Shown: in pieces, positions 2,978 through 31,415 of the stretch | Layout: every line of letters begins with the position of its first letter | Position numbering within the stretch: the first letter of the stretch is position 1 | Source of the DNA: a virus | Lineage: Duplodnaviria; Caudoviricetes | IMG/VR virus record: IMGVR_UViG_3300020308_000002 | Location: 10,576 to 74,575 of that record | Length of the DNA stretch: 64,000 nucleotides | Strand: one strand, 5' to 3' | Notes under the pieces: generated by a model | The model's input: only the letters and a program-made list of their open reading frames with translations | The model's database searches: none | What the model was told of the DNA's origin: nothing | Program-made: the position numbers and the translations under genes

Positions 2978-4427
2978 CTACTTCCTCTGGTGTCTTCAAA
3001 GACCTTCTTAAAGATTCTAAAGCCTGTCCAAGAACAGCAGTACTTGCTAATCCTCCAGAACCGTATTGCACTGCAGATAAGAAGGCTTCTCTTTCATTAG
3101 CAGCTTTTCTTGCTTCATTTATTGCTTTCATCTCTGGAATGTTTTCCTGTAAACGAGCCTTTCTTCTTAGCTCTGCTTTTCCTTTAGCTCCTTCGAAATA
3201 TTTATCTTCTGCTTTGTATTGTCCTAATTTATAAGCTAATTTATCAAACTCTTCTTCTTTAGCTGCTAGACGACTTTGAATACCTTGTTGTTTAGAAATA
3301 CCCCCTCTCGGTGCAAGTAATCTCTTTCCTCCTCTTCTTAAGCCATAGCCTGTGCCAACCGCTGCTGCTACCGCTGGCAAGACACCTGTCGCTATAGGGA
3401 TGCTTTTGCCCATGAAGTTAACTTCAGGGCCTTGAATACCATCTACGGTACCTTTCAAAGCACCTAGAAGATTAAAGTCTCCATCGAAAGGATTTAAGTC
3501 TGTTTTTTGGTCAAAGGTATAAGCTTTATATCGTCTATATTCTTCAGGAGAAACGTCTGGTCTTTCCTTAGAAAATTCACTATAGGGAAGGAGTCTGCCT
3601 GAGCGTCCTAGGAAGTATCTACTTAATAATTCAGCAGCAGGAGCATCACTCTTACGAGGATCATCTTCACTTGGAATAATTGCTTTATAGCCTGGTTGAC
3701 GTCCAATATTTCCGACAGCGATAGAAGTTCCTATTACAGCAGGCATGGTTGCAGCCAATCTGTATCCCCTCGTAGGTAATAATCTTGATTTAATTGTTTT
3801 TTCTTTTCCTACTGGGATGTCAGGCATCATGTCTGTTAAAGGCTTCTCACCCATATGCATACCTTGCAAGGAGCCTAAGGTTGCCACAGCCTGAGGTGCA
3901 TTTAAGAACCACCAAATAGTTCTCAATCCGTCCGTCATAACATCGCCAGCCGCTATACCTGAAGCCTGCAACATACGTGCTCGACGTCCTAGCTTTGTAC
4001 GATCACTAGGAACGGCATCTTCTGCGACTTGGGGCAATCCAAATCTAGATGTCTTAGCAACGGTGTAACCAGGATCAACAGTTTCTCTAGCTATTCGAGG
4101 ATCTAAGTCTCTTTGAACCCTGTATTCTTCTTTTTGAACTTCTGACATTCCCCCTAGAGGAACGGAAGAAATAGCATTAGCAATTTTTCTCTGCCAATTA
4201 GGGGCAGTTTCCATGCGACGTTGGAAATCATTACCCCATGCAGTAGCTCCTACATCCGAAGGAAGTGCTCGTCTTAATGCGTCTAGAGCTGAAGAGCTCA
4301 TAAACATATCTTCGATAGGATCTGCCCTGACAATATCTTCAGGATTGAAGAACCTAGGGTTAGATCTAAACCCTTCTTCGAATATCCTCAAGCCATCTTG
4401 AGGTCTACGTCCTAATCCTTCAACCAT
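2970..4427 (-). CDS. Hypothetical protein (probable internal virion/membrane protein)
   Basis: Long ORF with several Gly/Ala hydrophobic segments; start set at MVEGLGRR (ATG 4427), track ORF opens at 4460. Confidence 0.7.
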   Translation of the reverse strand: MVEGLGRRPQDGLRIFEEGFRSNPRFFNPEDIVRADPIEDMFMSSSALDALRRALPSDVGATAWGNDFQRRMETAPNWQRKIANAISSVPLGGMSEVQKEEYRVQRDLDPRIARETVDPGYTVAKTSRFGLPQVAEDAVPSDRTKLGRRARMLQASGIAAGDVMTDGLRTIWWFLNAPQAVATLGSLQGMHMGEKPLTDMMPDIPVGKEKTIKSRLLPTRGYRLAATMPAVIGTSIAVGNIGRQPGYKAIIPSEDDPRKSDAPAAELLSRYFLGRSGRLLPYSEFSKERPDVSPEEYRRYKAYTFDQKTDLNPFDGDFNLLGALKGTVDGIQGPEVNFMGKSIPIATGVLPAVAAAVGTGYGLRRGGKRLLAPRGGISKQQGIQSRLAAKEEEFDKLAYKLGQYKAEDKYFEGAKGKAELRRKARLQENIPEMKAINEARKAANEREAFLSAVQYGSGGLASTAVLGQALESLRRSLKTPEEVDA

Positions 4428-25872: not shown

Positions 25873-26178
25873 ATGTGGAACAATTACTTGGTCTTTCGCA
25901 CGAAAAATCTTTCTTTTTTACAAAAAATGACTATCCCTTTTGAATACCTCCTCGAGGCTTACGTGAAACATCAGATTCGTCGGATGGGTTCAGGTGAGAT
26001 AAAAGCTCTCCTCACTTCTTACATGATTGAAGACAACAAAGGTGGCTTAGATAAGGTTGCAACAGAATCCAATCTAAAAGATGAAATTATTGAAAGATAT
26101 GACATCGAAACTTTAGATAAGATCCTTGCGGAATCAGAATCTTTGATGAACGAAGACAAAATGTTTGCTACTGATTAA
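25873..26178 (+). CDS. Hypothetical protein
   Basis: 101 aa; start may be the internal MTIPFEY. Confidence 0.6.
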   Translation: MWNNYLVFRTKNLSFLQKMTIPFEYLLEAYVKHQIRRMGSGEIKALLTSYMIEDNKGGLDKVATESNLKDEIIERYDIETLDKILAESESLMNEDKMFATD

Positions 26179-26429
26179 TGCAGTTACTCCACGCCTTGTT
26201 CAAAGCAACAACGAACGACAATCTTCCACTACCTACAGCACTCTCTTTGACTAGAGGAGAGTGTTACAGGTATTGGTCAAAACTAAAAAATACGACCGAT
26301 CCCAAACAAGTTGCAGCAACTGTGGCTGAACTTAATAAAAGGACTGGTCGTATTGGAAAAGATCCGTGGAACCTTAGACAATGGACTCAAATTCTAGAGT
26401 CCCACTTGTATAGGAAAGGATTAATTTAA
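26178..26429 (+). CDS. Hypothetical protein
   Basis: TAATG coupling. Confidence 0.6.
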   Translation: MQLLHALFKATTNDNLPLPTALSLTRGECYRYWSKLKNTTDPKQVAATVAELNKRTGRIGKDPWNLRQWTQILESHLYRKGLI

Positions 26430-26433
26430 ACGC

Positions 26434-26529
26434 TTATACGTAAGCGATCTTTCTAACTGGCTTAACGTAACTCTTACCTCTGTAAGTAAGAACAACACTT
26501 TTTGTCTTGTTAGATGTAGCTGTAGCCAT
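26434..26529 (-). CDS. 31-aa YRG peptide (DUF4278 / glutamine synthetase inactivating factor-like): MATATSNKTKSVVLTYRGKSYVKPVRKIAYV
   Basis: Translated by hand; LTYRGKSY signature; GGAG SD; directly downstream of the riboswitch. Confidence 0.85.
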   Translation of the reverse strand: MATATSNKTKSVVLTYRGKSYVKPVRKIAYV

Positions 26530-26544
26530 GGTTTTTCTCCATAA

Positions 26545-26593
26545 CAACACCCCCGTCATATGGTGCTGGTGATTGCGACCAAATGGTCTGACG
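26545..26593 (-). ncRNA. Glutamine-II (Downstream-peptide) riboswitch
   Basis: Minus strand CGUCA-GACC-AUUU-GGUC-GCAA-UCAC-CAGCACC-AUA-UGACG-GG-GGUGUUG: P1 CGUCA/UGACG, P2 GACC/GGUC, pseudoknot CAGCACC/GGUGUUG. Confidence 0.85.
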
Positions 26594-26616
26594 ATTTGAT
26601 TTCATCATAACATTCG

Positions 26617-26630
26617 GTATAAACAGATAC
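26617..26630 (-). promoter_or_regulatory. NtcA-binding site (GTA-N8-TAC), 7 nt upstream of a TATGAT -10 box (26604-26609)
   Basis: GTATAAACAGATAC; a second GTATCA-CCT-TGATAC palindrome at 26632-26646. Confidence 0.7.
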
Positions 26631-26677
26631 TGTATCACCTTGATACGGTTTTCATGATCTTAATATTTTGATGTGAA

Positions 26678-27028
26678 TTGAAGAGTATAGCCACGCCTTT
26701 CGGGAAAAAGATGACACCTTTTAGGTTCCGTATTAAACTGAAAAGCCAGGAGAAAATAATGATTAGTGGAGTAAAAGATCAGTGGGGTCAGCTAAGAAAA
26801 AGAGCAGTCTTGGTTGACCGATTAAACAAGAAATGTTTAGACGCAAATTGGAGACCACTCTTATCTGAATCAGAACTAGAGGATGCAAATCATCGTTTAG
26901 ATGAGGCATATAGCATTTGGCAGTGGCGTTGGACTGGTAATTCAGTTAACCTTGCGGGTACTATTAATCTCGCAGAAGAATCGAAAAATGCTCAGTTGCA
27001 ATTCAGCACTGGTTGCTATAGCGTCTGA
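26678..27028 (+). CDS. Hypothetical protein
   Basis: Start uncertain; tail overlaps the next gene. Confidence 0.5.
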   Translation: MKSIATPFGKKMTPFRFRIKLKSQEKIMISGVKDQWGQLRKRAVLVDRLNKKCLDANWRPLLSESELEDANHRLDEAYSIWQWRWTGNSVNLAGTINLAEESKNAQLQFSTGCYSV

Positions 27029-27611
27029 ATTTGTAGGCACGTTCGCACCATACCAATCAATACAATTACATCCAGATAAAGAAGGTGGAGTATGGATAGC
27101 TTCTACCGATAAAGGTAACTGTGCTTGTATAGCTTATGACAGGGGTGGTCATGGCGACAGACCATATTATTTGTTGCCTAACTCAGAATTAATTAAATCA
27201 TGTAGAGGTATCAAAACAGCGACCAGAACATTAGTTGTAGACGGCTCATTAGGCAAGATAACTACTTACAGGAAAAACAGTTCAGAAACAAAAGAATTAC
27301 CTATTAATGAAAGTTCTAGTGACTTTCCTAATTTACCAGGTGCTATTAAAGAGTGTTTGGAATACTGGGAATCTAAGAAAGACCAGACTGCATCAGCAGG
27401 GAGATACAGTTCTTCTTATCTTCAACGAGCCATTAAAGGTCTGACTTCCCTCAATTCATCGGTAACCTTACACTCCTATACAGGAGGTCCTTTAAGAATA
27501 CAAGAAGCATCTGGAGATATAACAATCCTATGTATGCCTCAAACAGCGGAGCCCATACCTGAAGTTCCCGAGTGGCTTAAAAAATATTCACAATTAAAAC
27601 CACATATATAG
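26988..27611 (+). CDS. DNA polymerase III beta-clamp-like protein (two domains)
   Basis: IASTDKG ~ vATDGhR, SDFPNL ~ FPdy, RYSSSYL ~ fN..YL, and PLRIQ...ITILCMP ~ P..i...limP. Confidence 0.55.
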   Translation: MLSCNSALVAIASEFVGTFAPYQSIQLHPDKEGGVWIASTDKGNCACIAYDRGGHGDRPYYLLPNSELIKSCRGIKTATRTLVVDGSLGKITTYRKNSSETKELPINESSSDFPNLPGAIKECLEYWESKKDQTASAGRYSSSYLQRAIKGLTSLNSSVTLHSYTGGPLRIQEASGDITILCMPQTAEPIPEVPEWLKKYSQLKPHI

Positions 27612-30045: not shown

Positions 30046-30888
30046 ATGACGAAACCTACTCGATTTGAGGTGAATGGTGAACGTCATTATGCAACAGATA
30101 GAGCAGATAAATCTTATCCTTCAGTAACAACAATATTAGGTGCGACGTCTTCTGATCGAAGTAAAAAAGCTTTGCTTAATTGGCAGTTAAAGAATCCCAA
30201 TGGCGCGATGCTCGCAGCACAAAGAGGTTCAGCGGTACACCAAGCCTGCGAGGATTATATTCGAGGGAAAGTGATAGAAATAAAAGAAGAATACCTACCA
30301 TTTTGGAATGGGATGTCGGAACATTTAGATAAATATGATGAATTTATTTGGTCAGAAATGCCTCTACGTCCTGAATGGAAATTCTGTACTGGAGAGGATG
30401 GTATTAGCAGAGTTTGGAGTCACAAATATATGTATTGTGGCTGTCCTGATTTACTAGGTGTACGTAATGACACCATCATTATCGGAGACTTTAAAACTTC
30501 TAATCAACCTTACTGTCGCTATTACCCAACTAAAGAAGCAAGTAAAGCAAATAGAGCTTTATTTACAGGTTGGAATAAATTCAACAAGTGTGCAATGCAA
30601 CTAGCAGCTTATGCTCAAGCATGCCAAGAAACACTTGGTGTCACTGTGGGATGTGCAGAGATCATTGTCTCTACTCCAGAGATTAACCAGAGTTTTATTC
30701 TTAACTCAAACGAACTTGCTAAATTCCATACTAAATGGCTGCAAAAGGTTCGCCGTTACCAAGAAATAAAAGAAGAAGAGAGGATAGCGAAACAAATTTT
30801 AAAAGATTCCAGGGATGACTTGGCCTGTAGTGAGATAAGCACCGATAAGAGCAACAAAGCCGATCATTGCCCAGCGACCGTTAGCTAA
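30046..30888 (+). CDS. PD-(D/E)XK exonuclease (Cas4/MGME1-like phage exonuclease)
   Basis: YPSVTTIL, RGSAVH, GCPDLL, IGDFKTS, and QLAAYA. Confidence 0.88.
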   Translation: MTKPTRFEVNGERHYATDRADKSYPSVTTILGATSSDRSKKALLNWQLKNPNGAMLAAQRGSAVHQACEDYIRGKVIEIKEEYLPFWNGMSEHLDKYDEFIWSEMPLRPEWKFCTGEDGISRVWSHKYMYCGCPDLLGVRNDTIIIGDFKTSNQPYCRYYPTKEASKANRALFTGWNKFNKCAMQLAAYAQACQETLGVTVGCAEIIVSTPEINQSFILNSNELAKFHTKWLQKVRRYQEIKEEERIAKQILKDSRDDLACSEISTDKSNKADHCPATVS

Positions 30889-31017
30889 TTCAGCTTCCTG
30901 AACATAGCCTTTATACTCTTCAACCAATTGTGGTTGAGTCTCTCTACCGAAAATATTTTGCTTACCGTATTCAGTAATAGTTGTACTAGCTGCTACGGCT
31001 TGAGTAGAAGAAGTCAT
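30799..31017 (-). CDS. hli: High-light inducible protein (72 aa)
   Basis: AELANGRWAMIGFVALIGAYLTTGQVIPGIF. Confidence 0.95.
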   Translation of the reverse strand: MTSSTQAVAASTTITEYGKQNIFGRETQPQLVEEYKGYVQEAELANGRWAMIGFVALIGAYLTTGQVIPGIF

Positions 31018-31184
31018 TAAACGAAACCTGGAATAATTTGACCTGTTGTTGCGTAAGCTCCAACTAATGCAATACAACCAACTAAAGCTGCATAGCCATT
31101 TAATCTTTCAGCAAAAGCTTTAGTTTCTGTGTCGTAACTAAAACCTTCTTCTAAGATCTCTTCACTTAAAGATTTTTTAGACAT
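31017..31184 (-). CDS. hli: High-light inducible protein (55 aa)
   Basis: AERLNGYAALVG...TGQIIPGFV; TAATG coupling. Confidence 0.93.
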   Translation of the reverse strand: MSKKSLSEEILEEGFSYDTETKAFAERLNGYAALVGCIALVGAYATTGQIIPGFV

Positions 31185-31303
31185 TAAACGATACCTGGGA
31201 TGATGTGACCTGTTGTCAAGTAAGCTCCGCAAAGAAAGACGAAAGCCATCATTGCTGGCCTTCCGATACTTCTTTCGAAAATTGTTTTATTAGATGTTTT
31301 CAT
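31184..31303 (-). CDS. hli: High-light inducible protein, divergent type (39 aa)
   Basis: FERSIGRPAMMAFVFLCGAYLTTGHIIPGIV. Confidence 0.88.
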   Translation of the reverse strand: MKTSNKTIFERSIGRPAMMAFVFLCGAYLTTGHIIPGIV

Positions 31304-31307
31304 TGAT

Positions 31308-31415
31308 TTAAAAGATGCCAGGGATGAGCTGACCTGTAGTTGCGTATGCACCAATGCCTGCAACAACGCCAAGCATTGCTAACCAGCCATTAAACTTCTC
31401 TGCCTCAGGTGTCAT
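31308..31415 (-). CDS. hli: High-light inducible protein (35 aa)
   Basis: MTPEAEKFNGWLAMLGVVAGIGAYATTGQLIPGIF, translated by hand. Confidence 0.95.
   Translation of the reverse strand: MTPEAEKFNGWLAMLGVVAGIGAYATTGQLIPGIF

What the first reader, a model, noticed from the sequence alone, without database searches (positions are those of the whole stretch)
26434..26593. Glutamine-II riboswitch controlling a 31-aa YRG peptide (GS-inactivating-factor-like)
Seen: a complete P1/P2/pseudoknot fold on the minus strand, with P1 read as CGUCA/UGACG (a C-G pair where CGUU/AACG is usual). A GGAG SD and the peptide MATATSNKTKSVVLTYRGKSYVKPVRKIAYV follow; the peptide is absent from the ORF track. Established: Downstream-peptide RNAs bind glutamine and precede short YRG/DUF4278 ORFs, and DUF4278/IF17-type proteins are linked to inactivation of glutamine synthetase. 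Inference: the phage senses host nitrogen status and can throttle host GS. The peptide is extremely short and may define the minimal GS-binding element.
Basis: partly seen in the sequence, partly recalled or inferred. Interest (0 to 1): 0.8.

Follow-up and report, generated by a model that had tools for sequence, protein, structure and literature searches.

The report
Variant glutamine riboswitch with YRG peptide
This cyanophage carries a small nitrogen-sensing unit (regulator site, glutamine-type RNA switch, 31-residue peptide gene) of a kind already known in marine cyanobacteria and their phages, but its RNA belongs to a poorly catalogued variant in which three interacting bases have changed together; what the peptide does is still untested.

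Summary
On the minus strand, 26593-26434 contains a 5-bp pseudoknot, two hairpins, a GGAG ribosome site and a 31-codon ORF with the L-x-YRG-x-x-Y motif.

Rfam's Glutamine-II model does not report it, even at E<=10. It is still a true relative:
- It aligns without gaps to bona fide phage Glutamine-II aptamers.
- It keeps every invariant core base.
- Both of its changed pseudoknot pairs are compensated.

It belongs to a variant subclass that I found in four lineages of one cyanophage family. In this subclass the canonical G35>A37:U4 triple reads A/G:C.
- Rfam scores the three sister lineages at 27, 29 and 34 bits (cut-off 33).
- A model built only from those three lineages hits the window at 68 bits, E 9e-23.

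The peptide is the best match in the window to a profile of riboswitch-linked peptides (E 0.004). It has no Pfam DUF4278 hit.

The claim that it is extremely short or minimal is wrong. Phage units usually encode peptides of 14-21 residues, and the published range starts at 17.

Glutamine binding and glutamine synthetase (GS) inhibition remain untested inferences. This scan has already noted phage glutamine-riboswitch/YRG cassettes in at least 61 other genomes, but not this variant.

The parts
26617..26630 (-). NtcA-type box (GTA-N8-TAC), 7 nt upstream of the -10 hexamer
   Evidence: Read. The motif alone is not significant in the window (17 found, 10.4 expected). The same box sits at the homologous place in sister lineages L327, L357 and L381, where its TAC is the start of the -10 hexamer.
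26604..26609 (-). -10-like hexamer TATGAT. The predicted transcript start is about 26597, 3-4 nt before the aptamer.
   Evidence: Sequence. It is positionally equivalent to TACAAT, which lies 11 nt before the aptamer in L327, L357, L380 and L381. The transcript start is inferred, not shown.
26589..26593 (-). 5' strand of the pseudoknot helix PK (CGUCA; canonical is CGUUC)
   Evidence: It pairs with 26554-26558. All 5 pairs are standard. Pairs 4 and 5 are changed on both sides relative to the canonical form.
26577..26588 (-). P1 hairpin (4 bp, 4-nt loop)
   Evidence: -5.2 kcal/mol. The loop base differs in the close relative L001 while the stem is kept.
26569..26576 (-). Linking strand. It carries the G and C equivalent to G18 and C19 of the crystal structure (26576, 26575).
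   Evidence: The CGCA columns are invariant in 51 aligned aptamers, including the window. Their roles are taken from PMC6698751.
26545..26568 (-). P2 hairpin (7 bp, one G-U). Its 10-nt loop holds the 3' PK strand UGACG (26554-26558) and the invariant ACGGGG.
   Evidence: P2 pairs covary across lineages: 6 of 7 pairs change on both sides.
26526..26544 (-). Hairpin pairing the first half of the GGAG site (26537-26540) with the start codon. A longer form borrows the 3' strand of P2.
   Evidence: Folding. The extended form belongs to the -23.6 kcal/mol minimum-energy fold. The aptamer fold plus the short hairpin is -17.1 kcal/mol before adding the pseudoknot (about -4.5).
26434..26529 (-). 31-codon ORF plus stop codon, encoding a peptide with one central L-x-YRG-x-x-Y motif
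   Evidence: Between the window and L001 the motif core carries 4 synonymous and 0 replacement changes. The 41-codon reading from 26559 starts inside the aptamer and has no ribosome site.
26431..26446 (-). Terminator-like hairpin overlapping the stop codon. It is weak and reads on both strands.
   Evidence: It is not conserved in L001. Sister lineages L327 and L380 have clear hairpin-plus-T-run terminators after their peptide genes.

Best explanation
This is a self-contained, host-style nitrogen-status unit of a cyanophage. It is transcribed against the flow of the neighbouring replication genes.

Shown:
- The leader is a homologue of the Glutamine-II (Downstream-peptide, type 2) riboswitch aptamer.
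- It belongs to a variant subclass with three defining changes: pseudoknot pair 4 is C:G instead of U:A, the base that forms a triple with that pair is A instead of G, and pair 5 varies by compensated changes.
- All bases that contact glutamine in the crystal structure are kept.
- The ORF behind it is a member of the short YRG peptides that follow such aptamers.

Inferred, by homology with the Prochlorococcus MED4 Yfr6 unit and Synechocystis gifB:
- NtcA bound inside the core promoter shuts transcription off when nitrogen is scarce.
- Glutamine binding stabilises PK and P2. That pulls the 3' strand of P2 out of a longer hairpin that buries the ribosome site and start codon, so translation rises.
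- Together, the peptide is made only in nitrogen-replete, glutamine-rich infected cells.

Not known: the peptide's target. Glutamine synthetase is the standing hypothesis for this peptide family.
For: Gapless alignment to canonical phage aptamers:
- The invariant columns CGU, CGCA, CA and ACGGGG are all kept.
- PK is fully paired in all 51 sequences. The window changes both sides at pairs 4 and 5.

The family tolerates PK covariation:
- 17 loci carry the compensated pair-5 form with YRG ORFs behind them.
- Rfam still accepts these loci, at 33.9-46 bits.

The variant subclass:
- A scan that left the 5' strand free found G at position 37 only together with C at position 4 and A at position 35.
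- It found this in three further lineages: L327/L357, L380 and L381. Each is followed by a ribosome site and a 34-35 residue YRG peptide.
- Within the subclass, pair 5 is A:U or G:C.
- Rfam RF01704 scores the sisters at 34.1, 29.0 and 27.1 bits.
- Model R3, built from the sisters only, hits the window at 68.4 bits, E 9e-23.

Conservation:
- The sisters are the same phage family at only 35-70% protein identity in flanking replication genes.
- Neutral DNA at that distance would be scrambled, yet the aptamers are about 80% identical.

Peptide.

NtcA box: conserved in 3 of 4 lineages.

Roles of the bases, the response of the MED4 aptamer to ammonium, and the NtcA site at the MED4 unit: PMC6698751 and PMC6212724.

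Fold energies of the two alternative states lie within about 2 kcal/mol of each other.
Against: - Rfam reports nothing for the window itself at E<=10. I cannot fully explain this, because sister L381 differs at only 9 of 55 positions.
- With the canonical-only models the hit is not significant on its own (E 0.41 and 0.83).
- The changed triple lies next to the ligand site, so affinity may differ or be lost.
- No binding or expression data exist.
- In the aptamer fold a 6-bp hairpin still covers the start codon, so the direction of switching cannot be read from the sequence.
- The NtcA motif is frequent by chance. L380 has N6 spacing instead of N8.
- The window's own lineage is too shallow (90-98% identical flanks) to show selection by itself.
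- There is no Pfam DUF4278 hit for the peptide.
Confidence: 0.7

Rival explanations
1. Relic aptamer. The leader descends from a Glutamine-II riboswitch but no longer binds glutamine. The peptide is controlled only by the promoter and its NtcA box, and by a constitutive hairpin over the start codon.
For: - There is no Rfam hit for the window.
- The base triple next to the ligand pocket is altered.
- A hairpin over the ribosome site and start codon forms in every predicted fold.
Against: - Both changed PK pairs are compensated. The third base of the triple changes with them in four lineages.
- Every ligand-contacting base is kept.
- The aptamer stays about 80% identical across phages whose replication proteins are only 35-45% identical.
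- A decaying leader would not behave this way.
Confidence: 0.15
2. Retuned sensor. The A/G:C triple subclass still uses the same fold but has a shifted affinity, or senses a different small molecule, suited to the infected cell.
For: - The three-base change is fixed in the whole subclass.
- In my scans the subclass occurs only in one cyanophage family.
- No cyanobacterial species genome holds the window-type or G35-type form of the core.
Against: - The bases that contact glutamine and the metal ion in the crystal structure are unchanged (PMC6698751).
- The changed triple caps the helix away from the ligand plane.
- The downstream gene is the usual YRG peptide.
Confidence: 0.1
3. The minus-strand transcript acts mainly as an antisense RNA against the converging plus-strand gene 26178-26429, and the small ORF is incidental.
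For: - The unit lies antisense within a plus-strand operon.
- In the window it has only a weak terminator-like hairpin, so read-through into the neighbouring gene is possible.
Against: - The ORF motif is invariant across all lineages, with synonymous-only change in its core.
- In L327 and L380 strong terminators follow the peptide gene.
- In those phages the unit lies 1-5 kb from the homologous neighbours, so no fixed antisense target exists.
Confidence: 0.03
4. A chance ORF and chance hairpins in an intergenic promoter region.
For: - The canonical-only models give E 0.4-0.8.
- There is no Rfam or Pfam hit.
Against: - R3 scores 68.4 bits, E 9e-23.
- The best RNA hit and the best peptide hit of the window are adjacent and correctly ordered.
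- The unit is conserved in four lineages.
Confidence: 0.02

Closest known systems
Glutamine-II riboswitch (Downstream-peptide motif, type 2; Rfam RF01704), in particular the Prochlorococcus MED4 Yfr6 unit (Weinberg 2010, PMC2864571; Klahn 2018, PMC6212724; crystal structure Huang 2019, PMC6698751)
   Same: - The order is the same: 5' PK strand, P1, linking strand with G and C, then P2 with the 3' PK strand in its loop.
- The same invariant bases are kept.
- It lies in the leader of a roughly 30-codon ORF with the YRG motif (33 codons in MED4).
- An NtcA site lies within the core promoter.
   Different: - PK pairs 4 and 5 read C:G and A:U instead of U:A and C:G.
- The triple-forming G35 is A.
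- The conserved GA before P2 reads CA.
- The window copy is not reported by the Rfam model.
- It is phage-borne, and transcribed divergently from a replication module.
Canonical Glutamine-II units of cyanophages (59 distinct examples collected here; phage glutamine riboswitches are mentioned in PMC9964418 and PMC9004378)
   Same: - The same aptamer architecture.
- The same peptide motif.
- The ribosome site lies 5-10 nt after P2.
- A subset has the same small hairpin pairing the site with the start codon.
   Different: - Canonical units score 50-59 bits in Rfam.
- They mostly encode peptides of 14-21 residues.
- They usually sit directly behind another gene's stop codon, without their own promoter.
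- An NtcA box is present in only 5 of 73, at scattered positions.
Synechocystis sp. PCC 6803 gifB: type 1 glutamine riboswitch plus IF17, repressed by NtcA (PMC6212724)
   Same: The logic is the same: NtcA repression combined with glutamine-dependent translation of a small protein that shares the DUF4278/YRG motif.
   Different: - The aptamer is a different class (a three-way junction, RF01739).
- IF17 is about five times longer and has the C-terminal region needed for binding glutamine synthetase, which this peptide cannot contain.

Membership tests
Glutamine-II riboswitch (Rfam RF01704) | Covariance-model score at or above the curated 33 bits | tested here: not met
   - The window has no hit at gathering score or at E<=10.
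- Positive controls score 49.8-58.9 bits.
- Sister lineages with the same variant core: L380 34.1 bits (passes), L381 29.0, L327 27.1.
Glutamine-II riboswitch (Rfam RF01704) | Five-pair pseudoknot between the 5' end and the P2 loop | tested here: met
   All 5 pairs are standard, and pairs 4 and 5 are changed on both sides. The duplex energy is -4.5 kcal/mol against -3.8 for the canonical helix.
Glutamine-II riboswitch (Rfam RF01704) | P1 and P2 hairpins in the canonical order and spacing | tested here: met
   The alignment to 50 other aptamers is gapless. In it, 97.6% of cells are paired against 78.4% in shuffles.
Glutamine-II riboswitch (Rfam RF01704) | Bases that contact glutamine or build its pocket: C1, G2, U3, G18, C19, A33, A38, C39, G40, G41, G42 of PMC6698751 | tested here: met
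   All are identical in the window by alignment. The invariant columns are CGU, CGCA, CA and ACGGGG. The roles of these bases are taken from the paper and were not measured.
Glutamine-II riboswitch (Rfam RF01704) | G35>A37:U4 base triple capping PK | tested here: not met
   - The window has A, G and C at these three positions.
- The same three-way change occurs in all four variant lineages.
- G35 goes with A37:U4 in all 17 loci where these positions were left free.
- This reads as covariation rather than loss, but that is an inference.
Glutamine-II riboswitch (Rfam RF01704) | Selective binding of L-glutamine and ligand-dependent gene control | not testable with these tools
   This needs in-line probing, ITC or reporter assays.
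Downstream peptides / DUF4278 (Pfam PF14105), IF17-like | Pfam score at or above 25.3 bits | tested here: not met
   - The window peptide has no hit at E<=10.
- Seven of eight canonical phage peptides tested are also below the cut-off (13.8-22.9 bits; one reaches 28.3).
- 8 of 10 aligned peptides give weak DUF4278 hits. The per-member list was not returned, but the window's peptide gave none, so at least three of the four sister peptides are among the eight.
Downstream peptides / DUF4278 (Pfam PF14105), IF17-like | L-x-Y-R-G-x-x-Y motif in a short ORF directly behind a glutamine aptamer | tested here: met
   - The motif columns are invariant in 10 peptides.
- The custom profile gives E 0.0038, the best of 2,487 segments.
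- BLASTP against the L055 peptide gives 10 of 13 identical, E 4e-06.
Downstream peptides / DUF4278 (Pfam PF14105), IF17-like | C-terminal IF7/IF17 region that binds glutamine synthetase, and GS inactivation | not tested
   No IF17 sequence was at hand by reference. A 31-residue peptide that ends 10 residues after the last motif residue cannot hold that region. Klahn 2018 states that the short IF17-like proteins lack it.
NtcA-repressed promoter | GTA-N8-TAC within or next to the -10 region rather than centred near -41.5 | tested here: met
   - The box is at 26630-26617, 7 nt from TATGAT.
- In L327, L357 and L381 the box overlaps the -10 hexamer.
- NtcA binding and repression themselves are not testable here.
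- The motif count in the window is not significant.

The most novel reading that the evidence does not exclude
The A35/G37:C4 form is a distinct, phage-restricted subclass of the glutamine-II riboswitch. Its replaced base triple retunes affinity or selectivity for conditions inside an infected cell. It also gives a natural three-way covariation that independently confirms the triple seen in the crystal structure, while most copies escape the Rfam model.
Probability: 0.15. Interest if true: 0.6.

Novelty: new variant of a known kind. Interest (0 to 1): 0.4.

Why it matters
Glutamine riboswitches with YRG peptides are among the most frequent regulatory RNAs of marine picocyanobacteria and their phages, yet the target of the peptides is unknown.

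This locus matters in three ways:
- **Catalogue scans undercount the class.** Compensated changes in a pseudoknot are penalised as plain mismatches. Only one of five variant representatives passes the Rfam cut-off.
- **It offers a natural test of the crystal structure.** The three bases of the G35>A37:U4 triple change together to A/G:C, which could be examined by binding assays and structure work.
- **It shows what a non-T4-like cyanophage family keeps.** This family retains the whole host-style logic (NtcA site, riboswitch, peptide) as an independent unit beside its replication genes. That fits with phages reading host nitrogen status.

It does not show that the phage throttles glutamine synthetase.

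Tried and rejected
**Rfam**
- Searched the whole window at gathering score, then 501-nt and 73-nt stretches at E<=10, then the whole record through the genome search at E<=10. None reported the locus.
- The only weak hits near the locus were a microRNA family and a repBA pseudoknot at E 4-7. I treat these as chance.

**Peptide searches**
- Pfam on the 31- and 41-residue readings: nothing.
- Protein Atlas on the peptide: no usable hit.
- Word-based protein search: only two near-identical proteins.

**Sequence searches in public collections**
- blastn of the region against cultured phages: no match.
- Exact-pattern scan for the window's core in viral contigs and metagenomes: only the window's own shallow lineage, plus chance hits.
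- In 185,579 species genomes all 36 matches were non-cyanobacterial chance hits. No host source for the variant was found.

**Ideas rejected**
- That conservation between the window and L001 shows selection on the leader. The flanks are 98% identical, so the comparison has no power.
- That homology ends at the stop codon. The break is a roughly 100-nt indel.
- The 41-codon reading that starts at 26559. It starts inside the aptamer and has no ribosome site.

- The genome search draws no relatives for a virus record.
- Ames and Breaker 2011 is not held in the paper library.

Full report
**What is there**

The features below lie on the minus strand.
- A GTA-N8-TAC box lies at 26630-26617.
- A TATGAT hexamer lies at 26609-26604.
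- The RNA elements follow in this order:
  - CGUCA at 26593-26589;
  - a 4-bp hairpin at 26588-26577;
  - CGCA at 26577-26574;
  - a 7-bp hairpin at 26568-26545, whose loop contains UGACG at 26558-26554;
  - GGAG at 26540-26537;
  - ATG at 26529;
  - a stop codon at 26436-26434.
- The ORF has 31 codons. The 41-codon ORF in the mechanical list starts inside the hairpin loop and has no ribosome site.
- The unit lies alone on the minus strand in a 250-nt gap between plus-strand genes.
- The phage is a cyanophage. Four tandem high-light-inducible genes lie at 30799-31415.
- Its primase-polymerase is most like that of Synechococcus siphovirus S-LBS1, at 27% identity.

- Rfam reports no Glutamine-II or other relevant family, at gathering score or at E<=10. 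This holds on 501-nt and 73-nt stretches and on the whole record.
- The tool itself works: five canonical phage aptamers score 49.8-58.9 bits.
- Pfam finds no DUF4278 in the peptide.

**Why I still call it a Glutamine-II relative**

I collected genuine phage units with a pattern scan of viral contigs.
- Seventy-five distinct riboswitches have a YRG ORF behind them.
- Fifty-nine of these are the Glutamine-II type.

MAFFT aligns the window to them without a single gap. L098 even has the same ACC/GGU P1.
- The invariant columns of the 51-sequence alignment, window included, are CGU, CGCA, CA and ACGGGG.
- According to the crystal structure (PMC6698751), these include C1, G2, U3, G18, C19, A33 and A38-G42. 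They are the bases that build the glutamine pocket.
- The window differs at pseudoknot pairs 4 and 5 (U:A to C:G, and C:G to A:U), both compensated. It also differs at G35, which is A.
- The paper states that these two pairs are the only PK pairs not more than 97% conserved.
- With the pseudoknot written in, 97.6% of pair cells are standard pairs, against 78.4% in shuffles. PK is paired in every sequence.

**Statistics with canonical-only models are weak but point to the right place**

- Model R1 (P1 plus P2) gives its best hit of the window here: 9.6 bits, E 0.41.
- Model R2 (PK plus P1) gives 9.9 bits, with all PK pairs standard.
- Independently, a profile of 52 riboswitch-linked peptides gives its best hit of 2,487 stop-to-stop segments on the adjoining ORF: 14.1 bits, E 0.0038, next best 5.7 bits.
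- The peptide shares 10 of 13 residues around the motif with the peptide behind a 53-bit aptamer in L055.

**The pseudoknot does covary in the family, and this costs Rfam score**

- A scan that left the loop positions free found 17 loci with pair 5 changed to U:A. All have the matching change in the unconstrained 5' strand and a YRG ORF behind them.
- Rfam scores these at only 33.9-46 bits.
- One compensated pair therefore costs about 10-15 bits, because the model treats pseudoknot bases as unpaired sequence.

**A variant subclass**

A scan requiring only G at position 37, the invariant tail and the linker, with the 5' strand free, returned three more lineages besides the window's. A further scan added L381.
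- The lineages are L327/L357, L380 and L381.
- In all of them position 4 is C and position 35 is A.
- In canonical-type loci where these positions were free, G35 always goes with A37:U4.
- The three bases of the crystal-structure triple G35>A37:U4 therefore change together to A/G:C.
- Within the subclass, pair 5 is A:U in the window and G:C in the others. P2 also changes on both sides.
- Each copy is followed by a ribosome site and a 34-35 residue peptide with one central YRG motif.
- In the Pfam run on ten aligned peptides, eight gave weak DUF4278 hits. The tool did not list which members matched, but the window's own peptide gave none, so at least three of the four sister peptides are among the eight.

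These contigs belong to the same phage family as the window.
- The flanking 236-residue protein, SSB, the exonuclease and the primase-polymerase are 35-70% identical.
- Neutral DNA at that distance would be scrambled, yet the aptamers are about 80% identical.

Links to the Rfam family:
- Rfam scores the sisters at 34.1 bits (L380, above the cut-off), 29.0 (L381) and 27.1 (L327).
- Model R3, built only from these three, hits window 26542-26596 at 68.4 bits, E 9e-23. The next best hit is 6.9 bits.
- Homology of the window's leader to Rfam-recognisable Glutamine-II aptamers is therefore secure.

One point stays unexplained. The window copy differs from L381 at 9 of 55 positions and scores like the sisters with R1, yet cmscan lists nothing for it. 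Either the filters dropped it, or losing the conserved GA before P2 costs many bits.

**Promoter**

- GTA-N8-TAC is frequent by chance in the window: 17 found against 10.4 expected.
- Even so, the same box, preceded by a conserved GTGATACAGTA, sits at the homologous place in L327, L357 and L381. There its TAC is the start of the TACAAT -10 hexamer, 11 nt before the aptamer.
- L380 has N6 spacing.
- Canonical phage units rarely have such a box (5 of 73, at scattered positions) and mostly follow another gene directly.
- Klahn et al. describe a perfect NtcA site overlapping the transcript start of the MED4 unit, and they read it as repression (PMC6212724).
- The position in the window, between the -35 and -10 regions, fits repression too. 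This is inference.

**How it most likely works**

- Shown: the architecture, conservation and covariation.
- Inferred: glutamine binding stabilises PK and P2.
- In the minimum-energy fold (-23.6 kcal/mol) the 3' strand of P2 joins a 12-pair imperfect hairpin with the ribosome site, the start codon and codons 2-5.
- With P1 and P2 enforced and the PK strands reserved, only a 6-bp hairpin remains (-17.1 kcal/mol, plus about -4.5 for PK).
- The two states are close in energy, as expected for a switch.
- I favour an ON switch, by homology with the MED4 aptamer, which raised reporter output after ammonium addition (PMC6212724). The sequence alone cannot decide the direction.
- Combined with NtcA repression, the peptide would be made only in nitrogen-replete cells.

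**What is not supported**

- The peptide is not unusually short. In 52 distinct phage units the peptides are 14-60 residues, and 16 of them have 17.
- Weinberg 2010 gives 17-100 residues (PMC2864571). MED4 Yfr6 has 33 codons.
- GS inhibition is established for IF17, not for these short peptides, which lack the C-terminal region that IF17 uses (PMC6212724).
- I found no later paper that tests them.

**Novelty**

- Phage-borne glutamine riboswitches are published (PMC9964418, PMC9004378).
- This scan has noted riboswitch/YRG cassettes in at least 61 other genomes.
- None of those notes shares this sequence.
- New here are the subclass with the triple changed in concert, its poor detection by Rfam, and its fixed place as an independent NtcA-box unit in one cyanophage family.
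- I could not read Ames and Breaker 2011, so I cannot exclude that such variants were in their alignment.

Noticed in passing
window 26678-27028 (+) and 26901-27611 (+): Two ORFs overlap in different frames. Both have tblastn homologues lying in the same overlapping two-frame layout in L380, L381 and L327. This could be a conserved gene overlap or a programmed frameshift in one gene.
   Followed up: partly
L237 about 3130-3231; L381 about 2850-2912; missing at window 26429-26433: A roughly 100-nt segment with a short hairpin follows the peptide stop codon in the close relatives and in L381. It is absent from the window, which instead has a small hairpin overlapping the stop codon.
   Followed up: partly
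loci L003, L019, L054, L081, L086, L112 and others, just upstream of their aptamers: Many canonical phage Glutamine-II units begin a few bases after a gene end that reads like the C-terminus of the D1 protein, or like that of a high-light-inducible protein. They therefore appear to be co-transcribed with photosynthesis genes and to have no promoter of their own. The gene identities were not verified.
   Followed up: no
window 30799-31415 (-): Four tandem high-light-inducible protein genes, each ending in the TTGQxIPGI motif.
   Followed up: partly
window 26631-26641 (-) and the homologous sites in L327, L357 and L381: A conserved GTGATACAGTA overlaps the 5' half of the NtcA-type box. In the window it forms a GATAC-A-GTATC palindrome. 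It could be a second regulator site.
   Followed up: no
protein P0002 (metagenome contig, not retrievable): A 57-residue gene call fuses the leader's reading frame to the peptide, because that contig has one fewer A between the ribosome site and the ATG. The spacing therefore varies by 1 nt in nature, and gene callers mis-start this ORF.
   Followed up: no
L117 about 2070-2190; also L018, L020, L091: These are tandem type 1 (glnA-type) aptamers with their own promoter, in front of two-motif YRG proteins. They were picked up by the same pattern as the Glutamine-II units.
   Followed up: no
window 26383-26402 (-): A second 6-bp hairpin lies downstream of the peptide gene, inside the converging 83-codon gene. 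It has no T run, so it is unlikely to be a terminator.
   Followed up: no
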